Shown: one piece after another, positions 50,441 through 55,514 of the stretch
How positions within the stretch are numbered: the stretch's first letter is position 1
How the letters are laid out: each line of letters starts with the position of its first letter
Assembly: GCF_006345805.1 (NCBI RefSeq)
Contig: NC_043003.1
Span: 1,240,001-1,304,000, forward strand
From: Octopus sinensis
Taxonomy: Eukaryota
DNA length: 64,000 bases
Reading direction: 5' to 3'
Made by a program: the position numbers

Positions 50441-53400
50441 GAGAGGGATGACCACTTATGCTAGAAGTAGTTCCACTGTGGCCTTACCACTAAGAAATGT
50501 TCTCAAGAAAATTTAGCAAACAGCAGAACGTAAGTGAGCAAGGCAAAGGAAAAGTAAACTGAACCTTCAGTTTTTTAATATGCTAGACCACTGGTTTTAA
50601 ATTGATGTTAATCAAATTAATGTCCAAATTTTTCACCCTCATTTTAATTATATATATATATCACTCATAAGGCTTTGGTCGGCCCAGTACTATAGTAGAA
50701 GACACTTTCCTAGGGTGCCACGCAGTGGGACTGAACCCGGAACCATGTGGTTGGGAAGCAAGCTTCTTACCACACAGCCACGGAATTGTATAAAATAATT
50801 GTTAGAATATTTTGTGTGTTGCATAAGTATAACCAATTCATTGCAGATAAATTTTAACAAGAAAATCTTAAATGGACCCCAAAGGGTCAAGTGGACCCCA
50901 AAGGGTCAAGTGGACCCCAAAGGGTCAAGTGGACCCCAAAGGGTCAAGTGGACCCTGGTGGCGATCCAATGCAGATGAAGATAGATCTTTTGTTGGTTAT
51001 CTTTACTCCACTCGGGGGTGGGGTCAAAAGACTTGAAGAAAGAAGATGCATACATATTTATACGTTTGCCAAAAGCATTGGTGACATCAGAGAACTCAGA
51101 ATTAAAAGAGACAGAATAAATATGAGACTTAATAATAATTACTGAAATTGATTTGTTCAACTAAACCGGGTACTTTTTGGTTATCTCACCCCCATTAAAA
51201 CAATTGCCATGAAAAAACTGGGTTATCTCCCCACTAAAAAATCGAGTTAACGTGGCGACGAGAGATTGGATCGAAAGAGTTCGATCCTTTTGCTTCAATA
51301 CTTCAACACATTGATGACTCTTTTGGCCTCCTCAATAGGAATGGTAGGATTTGGTATGAAAAATGTCATCAGATTCAATGAGATGTTTAATCTTTTCGCT
51401 TTTCATGTTTATTAATATTTTCAGTTTTGTAGGATTTGGTATAAAAAATGTCATCAGATTCAATGAGATGTTTCATCGTTTCGCTTTTCATGTTTATTAA
51501 TCTTTTCAGTTTTGTAGGATTTGGTATAAAAAATGTCATCAGATTCAATGAGATGTTTAATCTTTTCGCTTTTCATGTTTATTAATCTTTTCAGTTTTGT
51601 AGGATTTGGTATGAAAAATGTCATCAGATTCAATGAGATGTTTAATCTTTTCGCTTTTCATGTTTATTAATCTTTTCAGTTTTGTAGGATTTGGTATGAT
51701 AAATGTCATCAGATTCAATGAGATGTTTCATCTTTTCGCTTTTCATGTTTATTAATCTTTTCAGTTTTGTAGGATTTGGTATGAAAAATGTCATCAGATT
51801 CAATGAGATGTTTAATCTTTTCGCTTTTCATGTTTATTAATCTTTTCAGTTTTGTAGGATTTGGTATGAAAAATGTCATCAGATTCAATGAGATGTTTAA
51901 TCTTTTCGCTTTTCATGTTTATTAATCTTTTCAGTTTTGTAGGATTTGGTATGAAAAATGTCATCAGATTCAATGAGATGTTTAATCTTTTCGCTTTTCA
52001 TGTTTATAATAAATTTTCAGTTTTGTAGGATTTGGTATGAAAAATGTCATCAGATTCAATGAGATGTTTAATCTTTTCGCTTTTCATGTTTATTAATCTT
52101 TTCAGTTTTGTAGGATTTGGTATGAAAAATGTCATCAGATTCAATGAGATGTTTCATCTTTTCGCTTTTCATGTTTATTAATCTTTTCAGTTTTGTAGGA
52201 TTTGGTATGAAAAATGTCATCAGATTCAATGAGATGTTTAAACTTTTCGCTTTTCATGTTTATTAATCTTTTCAGTTTTGTAGGATTTGGTATGAAAAAT
52301 GTCATCAGATTCAATGAGATGTTTAATCTTTTCGCTTTTCATGTTTATTAATCTTTTCAGTTTTGTAGGATTTGGTATGAAAAATGTCATCAGATTCAAT
52401 GAGATGTTTAATCTTTTCGCTTTTCATGTTTATTAATCTTTTCAGTTTTGTAGGATTTGGTATGAAAAATGTCATCAGATTCAATGAGATGTTTAATCTT
52501 TTCGCTTTTCATGTTTATTAATCTTTTCAGTTTTGTAGGATTTGGTATGAAAAATGTCATCAGATTCAATGAGATGTTTAATCTTTTCGCTTTTCATGTT
52601 TATTAATCTTTTCAGTTTTGTAGGATTTGGTATGAAAAATGTCATCAGATTCAATGAGATGTTTAATCTTTTCGCTTTTCATGTTTATTAATCTTTTCAG
52701 TTTTGTAGGATTTGGTATGAAAAATGTCATCAGATTCAATGAGATGTTTCATCTTTTCGCTTTTCATGTTATTAATCTTTTCAGTTTTTAGGATTTGGTA
52801 TGAAAAATGTCATCAGATTCAATGAGATGTTTCATCTTTTCGCTTTTCATGTTATTAATCTTTTCAGTTTTGTAGGATTTGGTATAAAAAATGTCATCAG
52901 ATCAATGAGATGTTTAATCTTTTCGCTTTTCATGTTTATTAATCTTTTCAGTTTTGTAGGATTTGGTATAAAAAATGTCATCAGATTCAATAAGATGTTA
53001 ATCTTTTCGCTTTTCATGTTTATAATCTTTTCAGTTTTGTAGGATTTGGTATAAAAAATGTCATCAGATTCAATGAGATGTTTAATCTTTTCGCTTTTCA
53101 TGTTTATTAATCTTTTCAGTTTTGTAGGATTTGGTATAAAAAATGTCATCAGATTCAATGAGATGTTTCATCGTTTCGCTTTTCATGTTTATTAATCTTT
53201 TCAGTTTTGTAGGATTTGGTATAAAAAATGTCATCAGATTCAATGAGATGTTTAATCTTTTCGCTTTTCATGTTTATTAATCTTTTCAGTTTTGTAGGAT
53301 TTGGTATAAAAAATGTCATCAGATTCAATAAGATGTTTAATCTTTTCGCTTTTCATGTTTATTAATCTTTTCAGTTTTGTAGGATTTGGTATAAAAAATG

Positions 53401-55514
53401 TCATCAGATTCAATGAGATGTTTAATCTTTTCGCTTTTCATGTTTATTAATCTTTTCAGTTTTGTAGGATTTGGTATAAAAAATGTCATCAGATTCAATG
53501 AGATGTTTAATCTTTTCGCTTTTCATGTTTATTAATCTTTTCAGTTTTGTAGGATTTGGTATAAAAAATGTCATCAGATTCAATGAGATGCTTAATCTTT
53601 TCGCTTTTCATGTTTATAATCTTTTCAGTTTTGTAGGATTGGTATAAAAAATGTCATCAGATTCAATAAGATGTTTAATCTTTTCGCTTTTCATGTTTAT
53701 TAATCTTTTCAGTTTTGTAGGATTTGGTATAAAAATTTCATCAGATCAATGAGATGTTTAATCTTTTCGCTTTTCATGTTTATTAATCTTTTCAGTTTTG
53801 TAGGATTTGGTATAAAAAATGTCATCAGATTCAATAAGATGTTTCATCTTTTCACTTTTCATGTTTATTAATCTTTTCAGTTTTGTAGGATTTGGTATAA
53901 AAAATGTCATCAGATTCAATGAGATGTTTAATCTTTTCGCTTTTCATGTTTATTAATCTTTTCAGTTTTGTAGGATTTGGTATAAAAAATGTCATCAGAT
54001 TCAATAAGATGTTTAATCTTTTCGCTTTTCATGTTTATAATCTTTTCAGTTTTGTAGGATTTGGTATAAAAAATGTCATCAGATTCAATGAGATGTTTAA
54101 TCTTTTCGCTTTTCATGTTTATTAATCTTTTCAGTTTTGTAGGATTTGGTATAAAAAATGTCATCAGATCAATGAGATGTTTAATCTTTTCGCTTTTCAT
54201 GTTTATTAATCTTTTCAGTTTTGTAGGATTTGGTATAAAAAATGTCATCAGATTCAATAAGATGTTTAATCTTTTCGCTTTTCATGTTTATTAATCTTTT
54301 CAGTTTTGTAGGATTTGGTATAAAAAAGTCATCAGATTCAATAAGATGTTAATCTTTTCGCTTTTCATGTTTATTAATCTTTTCAGTTTTGTAGGATTTG
54401 GTATAAAAAATGTCATCAGATTCAATGAGATGTTTCATCGTTTCGCTTTTCATGTTTATTAATCTTTTCAGTTTTGTAGGATTTGGTATAAAAAATGTCA
54501 TCAGATTCAATAAGATGTTTAATCTTTTCGCTTTTCATGTTTATTAATCTTTTCAGTTTTGTAGGATTTGGTATGAAAAATGTCATCAGATTCAATAAGA
54601 TGTTTAATCTTTTCGCTTTTCATGTTTATTATTCTTTTCAGTTTTGTAGGATTTGGTATAAAAAATGTCATCAGATTCAATGAGATGTTTAATCTTTTCG
54701 CTTTTCATGTTTATTAATCTTTTCAGTTTTGTAGGATTTGGTATAAAAAATGTCATCAGATTCAATAAGATGTTAATCTTTTCGCTTTTCATGTTTATTA
54801 ATCTTTTCAGTTTTGTAGGATTTGGTATAAAAAATGTCATCAGATTCAATGAGATGTTTAATCTTTTCGCTTTTCATGTTTATTAATCTTTTCAGTTTTG
54901 TAGGATTTGGTATAAAAAATGTCATCAGATTCAATAAGATGTTTAATCTTTTCGCTTTTCATGTTTATTAATCTTTTCAGTTTTGTAGGATTTGGTATAA
55001 AAAATGTCATCAGATTCAATGAGATGTTTCATCGTTTCAGTTTTGTTTTTCCGGTTTATTGAGGGTTAAACATTTTTTTAAGATGAGATAACCAAAAGTA
55101 CCGATATTTCTCATAAAACTTGGGGAGATAACCCAGTTTTTTAATGGGGGTGAGATAACCAAAAAGTACCCTAAAGGCAGTTCAGCCAGCATGGCTGCAG
55201 TCCAATGACTGAAACAAGGGATGGATAAGCAATTAAAACTCATCAACTGCCATGGATGTAAAAACTCGTTCTAAAATTTCTTGTGTTTAGATAACAGGAG
55301 ATCCAACCGTAACCAACCCGTTTCTAAGTCTATCTAGGAGTATTGAACATTTTTTGGTACCGGATCACCATGAATATTGTCTCCAACGCTCAATAATTCT
55401 TTCAGTAAAAGGCACAACGCCAGCAATTCGATAAGGGACAGTTTTCTTTGCTCGCTGACACAAACAAGGAAGCCATTGGCAATGTGCAATGGGCGGCGAC
55501 AAGGAGACAGGCCT

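What the first reader, a model, noticed from the sequence alone, without database searches (positions are those of the whole stretch)
51168..55171. TIR element carrying a 3.7-kb, 85-bp satellite: candidate mobile satellite-seeding element
The array is bracketed by 33-bp perfect TIRs starting GGGTAC, with repeated GGTTATCTC motifs inside the ends (2 left, 3 right) that resemble transposase-binding sites. There is no ORF. About 92% of the element is satellite. This suggests a non-autonomous DNA transposon that amplifies and could disperse a satellite. The superfamily is unclear: the right flank is TAA (Harbinger-like), but the left flank is TAAACC, so there is no clean TSD.
Basis: partly seen in the sequence, partly recalled or inferred. 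Interest (0 to 1): 0.7.

Follow-up and report, generated by a model that had tools for sequence, protein, structure and literature searches.

The report
Inverted-repeat transposon carrying a satellite array
A 4-kb piece of DNA with matching inverted ends and no gene of its own has landed inside another repeat, and nine tenths of it is an 85-base unit repeated about 44 times; this kind of element is already known from frogs, clams, oysters and flies.

Summary
An 85-bp tandem array (51344-55038, 43.6 copies, 97% matches) lies between perfect 33-nt inverted ends at 51168 and 55171. The motif GGTTATCTC occurs 5 times in the 64-kb window, and all 5 are in those ends. With one 15-nt indel, the inverted repeat extends to 51 of 51 identical positions. 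New evidence: the 4,004-bp unit interrupts one copy of a SINE-like repeat that has many other copies in the window. The two SINE halves meet exactly at the inverted-repeat tips, so the unit arrived as an insertion. No target-site duplication abuts the tips, and the superfamily stays open. The element fails the tests for Helentron/HINE and for Spy. A Tc1-like element in the window has unrelated ends and is not its partner. Shared variants among monomers show that the array grew by repeated multi-monomer duplication. The "satellite-seeding" idea could not be tested: the window holds no second copy of the ends or the unit, and no eukaryotic sequence collection was open. Best reading: a non-autonomous inverted-repeat DNA transposon with an expanded internal tandem repeat, a new member of a known kind (miDNA4, Xstir, DTC84/pearl, Tetris). 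Interest is moderate to low.

The parts
51110..51167 (+). Left half of the interrupted SINE-like repeat copy (host target)
   Evidence: nhmmer with a profile of 6 window copies: hit 51110-51169, profile positions 32-94, E 0.0017. Alignments.
51168..51233 (+). Left terminal inverted repeat: 33 nt perfect (51168-51200), extended to 66 nt including a 15-nt insertion relative to the right end
   Evidence: 51 of 51 aligned positions identical to the reverse complement of 55121-55171.
51179..51187 (+). GGTTATCTC motif, left outer site, 11 nt from the tip
51221..51229 (+). GGTTATCTC motif, left inner site
51234..51343 (+). Left unique spacer (110 nt) between the inverted repeat and the array. It contains an 8-bp-stem hairpin at 51268-51287.
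   Evidence: Direct reading. No similarity to the right spacer (280 of 1000 shuffles reach the score) or to the rest of the window.
51344..55038 (+). 85-bp tandem array: 43 full monomers plus a 54-nt last unit
   Evidence: TRF; monomer alignment; mean 2.67 differences per 86 columns; internal sub-repeat.
55039..55120 (+). Right unique spacer (82 nt), including a degenerate inner copy of the terminus (about 55075-55104) with the third motif at 55085-55093
   Evidence: (14 of 14 core match 55084-55097).
55121..55171 (-). Right terminal inverted repeat (51 nt; outer 33 nt perfect) with motif sites at 55125-55133 and 55152-55160
55172..55232 (+). Right half of the interrupted SINE-like repeat copy (host target)
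   Evidence: nhmmer hit 55169-55232, profile positions 92-154, E 1.1e-10. blastn matches to 8 other window copies.

Best explanation
This is one copy of a non-autonomous DNA element with terminal inverted repeats. It has a MITE-like scaffold of about 310 bp: a 176-bp left arm and a 133-bp right arm. It inserted into a SINE-like repeat, and its interior is an 85-bp tandem repeat expanded to about 44 copies.

Shown:
- The unit is an insertion whose edges coincide with the inverted-repeat tips.
- It encodes nothing.
- Its ends carry 2 (left) and 3 (right) direct copies of a 9-nt motif that occurs nowhere else in the window.
- The array is built of blocks of identical or variant-sharing monomers.

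Inferred:
- A transposase encoded elsewhere binds the repeated motif in each end and moves the element by cut and paste.
- The 85-bp unit itself grew from a duplicated sub-motif of about 23 nt.
- The array then lengthened by unequal exchange or replication slippage of multi-monomer blocks, at least partly at this locus.

Whether the element travelled with a long array, and whether other copies exist, is unknown.
For: 1. Insertion. A profile of the SINE-like family hits 51110-51169 (profile positions 32-94, E 0.0017) and 55169-55232 (positions 92-154, E 1.1e-10). Both hits are on the same strand and abut at the inverted-repeat tips.
2. Ends. 33 of 33, then 51 of 51 with one indel. Beyond that the arms are unrelated, as expected of true terminal repeats rather than a large inverted duplication.
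3. Motif. 5 of 5 window occurrences lie in the ends and point the same way relative to each tip; expected 0.36.
4. No coding capacity. No Rfam family anywhere in the window.
5. Array growth. G at position 15 marks m01 and m04-m18, and A marks m02-m03 and m19-m44, except m39 (G) and m29 (a gap there). A at position 37 occurs only in m20-m43. The rare C46/G50 variant recurs in m02, m22, m37 and m44. Single-base deletions are shared by non-adjacent monomers (m19, m29, m34; m20, m36, m41). Identical-monomer classes have 9, 9, 4, 3 and 2 members.
6. Sub-repeat inside the unit: positions 40-60 against 62-85, 19 of 21 matches, reached by 1 of 300 shuffles.
7. The kind is documented. Review passages describe the Xenopus MITEs miDNA4 and Xstir (PMC12628747, PMC9659126). 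The DTC84 abstract (PMC3879986) describes a tandem-repeat MITE in a clam.
Against: - Only one copy is visible. The other 60 kb of the window have no second terminus and no second unit (best nhmmer E 0.065).
- No target-site duplication abuts the tips. For n = 2 to 10 the left flank's last n bases never equal the right flank's first n (direct reading). The paralogs show 8-12 nt between two SINE landmarks where this copy has 6, so there is no duplication. Cut-and-paste transposons normally leave one.
- No autonomous partner was found. The one transposase-bearing element in the window (Tc1-like, 36899-38520) has unrelated termini.
- The left SINE half-hit is weak on its own (E 0.0017).
- The array shows no detectable relation to the arms, so its origin from element sequence is not shown.
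Confidence: 0.72

Rival explanations
1. The element belongs to an active family that carries the 85-bp satellite from place to place. It leaves arrays of varying length inside inverted-repeat copies and, after the ends decay, free satellite arrays.
For: The element arrived as an insertion and its ends are intact: 51 of 51 positions. Families of exactly this behaviour are documented in review passages on miDNA4 and Xstir, the Tetris abstract and the Cg_HINE abstract.
Against: Nothing in the data shows a second copy. The variant pattern shows stepwise growth of this one array, which fits expansion after insertion equally well. A translated-satellite search of about 5.8 billion predicted proteins found nothing, though that is a very weak test.
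Confidence: 0.3
2. This is a Tc1/mariner-type MITE in a different register. The true element is 51173-55166, flanked by a TA duplication. The outer GGG and CCC are host bases that extend the palindrome by chance.
For: TA (51171-51172 and 55167-55168) is one of only two registers in which a direct repeat flanks a symmetric element; the other is GTAC (direct reading). The Xenopus miDNA4 satellite-bearing MITE is Tc1/mariner (review passage). Two binding-site-like repeats per end recall the inverted-repeat/direct-repeat ends of the Tc1-like element in this window.
Against: It needs three extra complementary bases by chance (1 in 64). It also needs a SINE copy with 14 nt between its two landmarks where 6 paralogs have 8-12. 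The termini do not start with the CAGT of the window's Tc1-like element.
Confidence: 0.12
3. This is a non-autonomous Helentron (HINE), the rolling-circle group that carries satellite-like central repeats in oysters, mites and flies and leaves no target-site duplication.
For: Central tandem repeats, no target duplication and no coding capacity. HINEs carry such arrays (PMC7492417 abstract and sections 7 and 9; PMC4067079 passages).
Against: The defining substructures are absent:
- The inverted repeats are terminal and 33-51 nt, not subterminal and 11-15 nt with the 3' one 38-60 nt from the end.
- No palindrome follows the 3' repeat.
- Neither arm has a microsatellite.
- The left arm has no nearby complementary inverted repeat.
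- The flanks are C and T, not TT or T-rich.
Confidence: 0.04
4. This is not a mobile element. Either an ordinary local satellite is flanked by an inverted duplication from a repair or rearrangement event, or it is an assembly artefact of a long-read assembly.
For: Only a single copy is seen. Many single-base deletions in homopolymer runs of the monomers could be read errors.
Against: The unit precisely splits a SINE copy at the tips of the inverted repeat. The inverted similarity stops after 51 nt and contains a repeated motif. Several deletions are shared by non-adjacent monomers, so they were inherited by duplication and are not random errors.
Confidence: 0.05

Closest known systems
miDNA4, a Tc1/mariner MITE of Xenopus tropicalis carrying a satellite (Scalvenzi and Pollet 2014; seen only through review passages in PMC12628747 and PMC9659126)
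   Same: A short non-autonomous element with inverted repeats whose interior holds a satellite monomer or an array of varying copy number. The proposed route runs from MITE to long internal array to free satellite.
   Different: The superfamily here is unassigned and no TA duplication abuts the tips. Only one copy is seen here, so variation in copy number between copies is unknown.
DTC84 / pearl-type tandem-repeat MITEs of bivalves (PMC3879986, abstract)
   Same: A modular build: flanking "cassette" sequences with inverted repeats around a central array of core repeats, with ordered repeat variants.
   Different: DTC84 has up to five core repeats, a microsatellite at one end of the array, short inverted repeats and a putative AA duplication. 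This element has about 44 repeats, no microsatellite, inverted repeats of 33-51 nt and no AA flanks.
Xstir/Xmix of Xenopus (Hikosaka and Kawahara 2004; seen only through review passages)
   Same: A MITE, a tandem array and composite forms of the two occur together, with the tandem repeats thought to derive from MITE-internal sequence.
   Different: No relation between the unit and the arms could be detected here.
Tetris foldback element of Drosophila virilis (PMC4079207, abstract)
   Same: A non-autonomous DNA element whose internal tandem repeats became kb-size satellite-like arrays.
   Different: In Tetris the 220-bp repeats lie inside long inverted repeats (a foldback structure). Here the array is a single direct array between short terminal repeats.
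Cg_HINE / DINE-1 Helentron derivatives (PMC7492417 abstract and sections 7 and 9; PMC4067079 passages)
   Same: Central satellite-like repeats, no target-site duplication, no coding capacity, insertion into other repeats.
   Different: The HINE substructures and the TT target are absent here; see the membership test.
Spy, inverted-repeat transposons without target-site duplication (PMC4122938 passages)
   Same: Terminal inverted repeats with no duplication, as judged from paralogous empty sites. The tip starts with GG.
   Different: Spy inserts precisely between AAA and TTT and has the terminal consensus GGANNNNG. Here the flanks are AAACC and TAAAGG and the tip reads GGGTACTT.

Membership tests
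Class II non-autonomous element with terminal inverted repeats (MITE-like) and internal tandem repeats | Terminal inverted repeats at the exact edges of an insertion | tested here: met
   33 of 33, and 51 of 51 with one indel. The edges coincide with the break in a SINE copy.
Class II non-autonomous element with terminal inverted repeats (MITE-like) and internal tandem repeats | No transposase gene | tested here: met
   The longest ATG-ORF is 106 aa and is generated by the repeat.
Class II non-autonomous element with terminal inverted repeats (MITE-like) and internal tandem repeats | Target-site duplication of a fixed length | tested here: not met
   No direct repeat of 2-10 nt abuts the tips. 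The paralogs show no duplication. Alternative registers (TA, GTAC, CC, TAAA plus 2 nt) each need an extra assumption.
Class II non-autonomous element with terminal inverted repeats (MITE-like) and internal tandem repeats | Multiple dispersed copies sharing the ends | not testable with these tools
   No other copy in the window. No eukaryotic collection was open; the prokaryote scan gave 0 hits.
Class II non-autonomous element with terminal inverted repeats (MITE-like) and internal tandem repeats | An autonomous partner with the same termini | tested here: inconclusive
   The only transposase-bearing element in the window (Tc1-like, 36899-38520) has unrelated termini. The rest of the genome was not available.
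PIF/Harbinger | 3-bp TWA duplication on both sides | tested here: not met
   The right flank is TAA, but the left flank ends in ACC. Paralogs show no 3-nt duplication.
Spy (PHIS group) | Insertion precisely between AAA and TTT | tested here: not met
   The flanks are AAACC and TAAAGG. Definition taken from PMC4122938 passages.
Spy (PHIS group) | Terminal consensus GGANNNNG | tested here: not met
   The tip reads GGGTACTT; only the first two bases fit.
Helentron non-autonomous elements (HINE/DINE-1) | Subterminal inverted repeats of 11-15 nt, with the 3' one 38-60 nt from the end and followed by a palindrome | tested here: not met
   The repeats are terminal and 33-51 nt, and no sequence follows the 3' repeat inside the element. 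Definition.
Helentron non-autonomous elements (HINE/DINE-1) | Insertion into TT or T-rich sequence, with a microsatellite in the left flank of the element | tested here: not met
   The flanking bases are C and T. TRF finds no microsatellite in either arm.
Tc1/mariner | TA duplication abutting the inverted repeats | tested here: inconclusive
   TA is present only if the outer 3 nt of the palindromic tip are taken as host bases. That reading needs an unusually long SINE variant.
Foldback elements (Tetris-like) | Tandem repeats lying within long inverted repeats | tested here: not met
   All monomers are in one orientation. The arms are unrelated beyond 51 nt.

The most novel reading that the evidence does not exclude
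The element belongs to an undescribed group of inverted-repeat DNA transposons that integrate without a target-site duplication. Its target and terminal motif differ from Spy. It moves a kb-scale satellite array as cargo, so a single transposition event can seed a new satellite locus.
Probability: 0.07. Interest if true: 0.65.

Novelty: new member of a known kind. Interest (0 to 1): 0.33.

Why it matters
Satellites riding inside small DNA transposons are one accepted route by which tandem repeats spread and new satellite loci arise. This copy is an unusually clean example. It has perfect ends, a long homogeneous array (about 44 units, where the clam element DTC84 has up to five) and an interrupted SINE that fixes the insertion edges. 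If genome-wide data showed many copies with varying unit numbers, it would be a useful case for dating array growth against transposition. The missing target duplication would then need explaining. As a single copy it adds one example and no new principle.

Tried and rejected
1. Second copy in the window. blastn-short of both arms and a dimer of the unit, and an nhmmer profile of 43 monomers against the array-masked window, found nothing significant (best E 0.065).
2. Degenerate monomers in the arms, or an origin of the unit from arm sequence. Not supported. The arms beyond the 51-nt repeat are unrelated (280 of 1000 shuffles reach the score).
3. Other tandem arrays bracketed by inverted repeats. 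I checked three regions holding other arrays of the window: the 36-bp array at 44717-44968, the 28-bp array at 48050-48228 and the 26- to 95-bp arrays at 9968-10200. None has convincing brackets.
4. Tc1-like element as the partner. Rejected; its termini are unrelated.
5. Rfam scan of the window: 0 matches.
6. Translated satellite (a 106-aa reading) against about 5.8 billion proteins. 390 candidates shared short words with the query and none scored E <= 0.001. Only proteins of 58-186 aa were searched, so this is a weak test.
7. The 26-nt terminus against 185,579 prokaryotic genomes: 0 hits. This says nothing about the host genome.
8. Host identification through the Tc1-like ORF. 693 of 1,294 candidates had E <= 1e-10 and the best was 80% identical, but none of the 120 listed carried a name or organism that identifies the host. 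The host remains unidentified. My recollection that the tail of the SINE-like repeat resembles cephalopod SINEs comes from no call and is unverified.
9. Paper search on octopus, satellite DNA and transposable elements: nothing relevant among the 15 papers listed.
10. Helentron, Spy, Harbinger and foldback membership: rejected on structure (see the membership test).

Not checked:
- No eukaryotic genome collection was available.
- Supplementary files of the Spy and HINE papers, which hold their inverted-repeat tables, were closed. A match of this terminus to a listed family cannot be excluded.
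Full report
**What is there.** The window has no N. It looks like repeat-rich eukaryotic DNA:
- 107 TRF rows, mostly microsatellites.
- A Tc1-like transposase ORF and reverse-transcriptase fragments.
- No Rfam family at gathering score.

Nothing suggests human sequence. The host could not be named with the tools. The Tc1-like ORF has 693 relatives at E <= 1e-10 among 1,294 candidates, but none of the 120 listed carries a name or organism that identifies the host.

**The observation.** TRF reports one array at 51344-55038: period 85, 43.6 copies, 97% matches. 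That is 3,695 of the 4,004 bp between 51168 and 55171. The first 33 nt (51168-51200) are the exact reverse complement of the last 33 (55139-55171, E 1.5e-13 in the window).

A gapped alignment extends the repeat. After a 15-nt stretch present only in the left arm, another 22 positions match, giving 51 of 51 identical aligned positions (left 51168-51233, right 55121-55171). Beyond that the arms are no more alike than shuffled sequence (280 of 1000 shuffles reach the score).

GGTTATCTC occurs five times in 64 kb, against 0.36 expected, and 0 of 100 shuffles reach five. All five lie in the arms and point the same way relative to the nearer tip: two left, three right. The third right-hand site sits in a degenerate inner copy of the terminus (about 55075-55104).

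ATG-ORFs inside the element reach 106 aa at most. Thirty-five of the 36 of 50 aa or more are read through the repeat; the other (55037-55243, minus strand, 68 aa) runs from the last bases of the array across the right arm into the flank.

**New evidence that it is an insertion.** The 47 nt just right of the element match eight other places in the window. These belong to a SINE-like dispersed repeat of about 160 nt. A profile built from six copies finds 17 hits at E < 1e-3.

With all filters off, the same profile hits 51110-51169 (profile positions 32-94, E 0.0017) and 55169-55232 (positions 92-154, E 1.1e-10). Both are on the same strand and abut in the profile. The 4,004-bp unit therefore splits one SINE copy, and the break falls at the tips of the inverted repeat, within 2-3 nt. 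This works as a paralogous empty-site test. It is the strongest support for the reading that the inverted-repeat-bounded unit arrived by insertion. The left half-hit is weak on its own; the collinearity with the strong right half-hit is what carries the argument.

**Target-site duplication.** No direct repeat of 2-10 nt abuts the tips. By its diagnostic positions, the interrupted copy belongs to the long variant of the SINE. In that variant, six uninterrupted copies have 8-12 nt between two landmarks (ACTA and AAGG). This copy has 6 (AACC on the left, TA on the right), so nothing is duplicated and 2 nt or more may be missing.

I considered four other registers:
- TA or GTAC inside the palindromic tip. 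This needs the outer GGG/CCC to be host bases by chance (1 in 64) and a 14-nt SINE variant.
- CC, with ends that are then asymmetric by 2-3 nt.
- TAAA with two extra bases on the left. This needs the copy to be of the short SINE variant, against its diagnostic positions.

None can be excluded from a single copy, and none is clean. The superfamily stays unassigned.

**The array.** It consists of 43 full monomers and a 54-nt last unit. Mean pairwise difference is 2.67 per 86 alignment columns.

Variants are arranged in blocks:
- G at position 15 marks m01 and m04-m18. A marks m02-m03 and m19-m44, except m39 (G) and m29 (a gap there).
- A at position 37 occurs only in m20-m43, often in every second unit.
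- A rare double variant (C46/G50) recurs in m02, m22, m37 and m44.
- Three different single-base deletions are each shared by three non-adjacent monomers.

Nine monomers are identical to the consensus, and nine more are identical to each other as the G15 type. This is the pattern expected of repeated duplication of multi-monomer blocks. The shared deletions argue that they are real variants and not read errors.

The unit itself contains a duplicated sub-motif: positions 40-60 against 62-85, 19 of 21 matches, reached by 1 of 300 shuffles. The last unit reads as a hybrid across that sub-repeat (direct reading).

Neither the unit nor the arms resemble anything else in the window.

**Mechanism.**

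Shown:
- An insertion with perfect terminal inverted repeats.
- Motif repeats confined to the ends.
- No coding capacity.
- Stepwise array growth.

Inferred:
- The motif copies are binding sites for a transposase supplied in trans.
- The element moves by cut and paste.
- The array lengthened by unequal exchange or slippage, at least partly at this locus.

Not known:
- Whether the array was already long when the element inserted.
- Whether the family exists elsewhere.
- Whether it spreads the satellite.

The Tc1-like element at 36899-38520 has inverted repeats of at least 191 nt, its own repeated motif and TA flanks. Its termini are unrelated to this element's, so it is not the partner.

**Comparison with what is known.** Tandem repeats inside non-autonomous DNA elements, and satellites that grow from them, are well documented:
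- miDNA4 and Xstir in Xenopus (review passages in PMC12628747 and PMC9659126).
- DTC84/pearl in bivalves (PMC3879986 abstract).
- Tetris in Drosophila (PMC4079207 abstract).
- Helentron derivatives in oysters, mites and flies (PMC7492417 abstract and sections 7 and 9; PMC4067079 passages).

This element works like the MITE cases. It is not a HINE: its repeats are terminal and long, no 3' palindrome follows them, it has no microsatellite and it has no TT target. It is not Spy: neither the AAA|TTT target nor the GGANNNNG tip is met (PMC4122938 passages). It is not a foldback element, because the array is not inside the inverted repeats. Its array of about 44 units is long next to the five or fewer of DTC84, but kb-size arrays inside elements are reported for Tetris.

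**Limits.** That test is the genome-wide distribution of the ends and of the unit, together with target duplications, empty sites and a partner element. Two substitutes gave nothing and are weak: a scan of prokaryotic genomes with the terminus (0 hits) and a protein search with the translated satellite (no hit). Supplementary tables of the Spy and HINE papers were closed.

**Verdict.** It is a new member of a known kind. Interest is 0.33. The most novel reading still open is a transposon group that leaves no target duplication and carries a satellite as cargo; I put it at about 7%.

Noticed in passing
window 36899-38520: A near-complete Tc1-like element. Its termini start CAGTTG, its inverted repeats are at least 191 nt (93%) with an outer and an inner copy of one motif (an inverted-repeat/direct-repeat layout), and it has TA on both sides inside (TA)n tracts. 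A 282-aa open frame (37234-38082) matches HTH_Tnp_Tc3_2 and DDE_3. The best database relative is 80% identical (338 aa).
   Followed up: partly
window, e.g. 15512-15669 (-), 59625-59788 (-), 61363-61509 (+), 49207-49354 (-), 24102-24257 (+), 21341-21492 (+): A SINE-like dispersed repeat of about 160 nt with 17 profile hits at E < 1e-3 in 64 kb. It has a long and a short variant that differ by an 8-12-nt segment. No tRNA-like or Rfam match was found for it. One copy is the target of the element studied.
   Followed up: partly
window 44717-44968: A 36-bp unit repeated 7.0 times with 100% identity. Each unit holds a near-palindrome of 16 nt. No inverted repeats bracket the array.
   Followed up: partly
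window 50873-50955: A 19-bp unit repeated 4.4 times with 100% identity, 213 bp upstream of the element. No relation to the element was seen.
   Followed up: no
window 50669-50781: A stretch of about 113 nt with diverged copies at 61135-61247 (-), 32285-32397 (+), 12178-12262 (-) and 20616-20687 (+), 85-89% identical. It is another dispersed repeat and was not classified.
   Followed up: no
window 46058-46702 (-), 16144-16521 (-), 38754-39089 (+): Reverse-transcriptase (RVT_1) fragments (E 2.8e-25, 8.5e-08 and 7e-04). They are remains of retroelements.
   Followed up: no
window 33426-34068, 15741-16070, 56228-56644, 25454-25736, 7162-7461: Very long (ACAT)n/(ATGT)n microsatellites, up to 161 units. 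Together with many (TA)n and (AC)n tracts, they give the window an unusually high microsatellite density.
   Followed up: no
window 51268-51287: A perfect hairpin (8-bp stem, 4-nt loop) in the left unique spacer of the element. Its significance was not tested.
   Followed up: no
window 51328-51339 and 55050-55065: A short inverted match (8 nt plus 4 nt with a 4-nt gap) lies a few bases outside each edge of the array. It is not significant against shuffles.
   Followed up: partly
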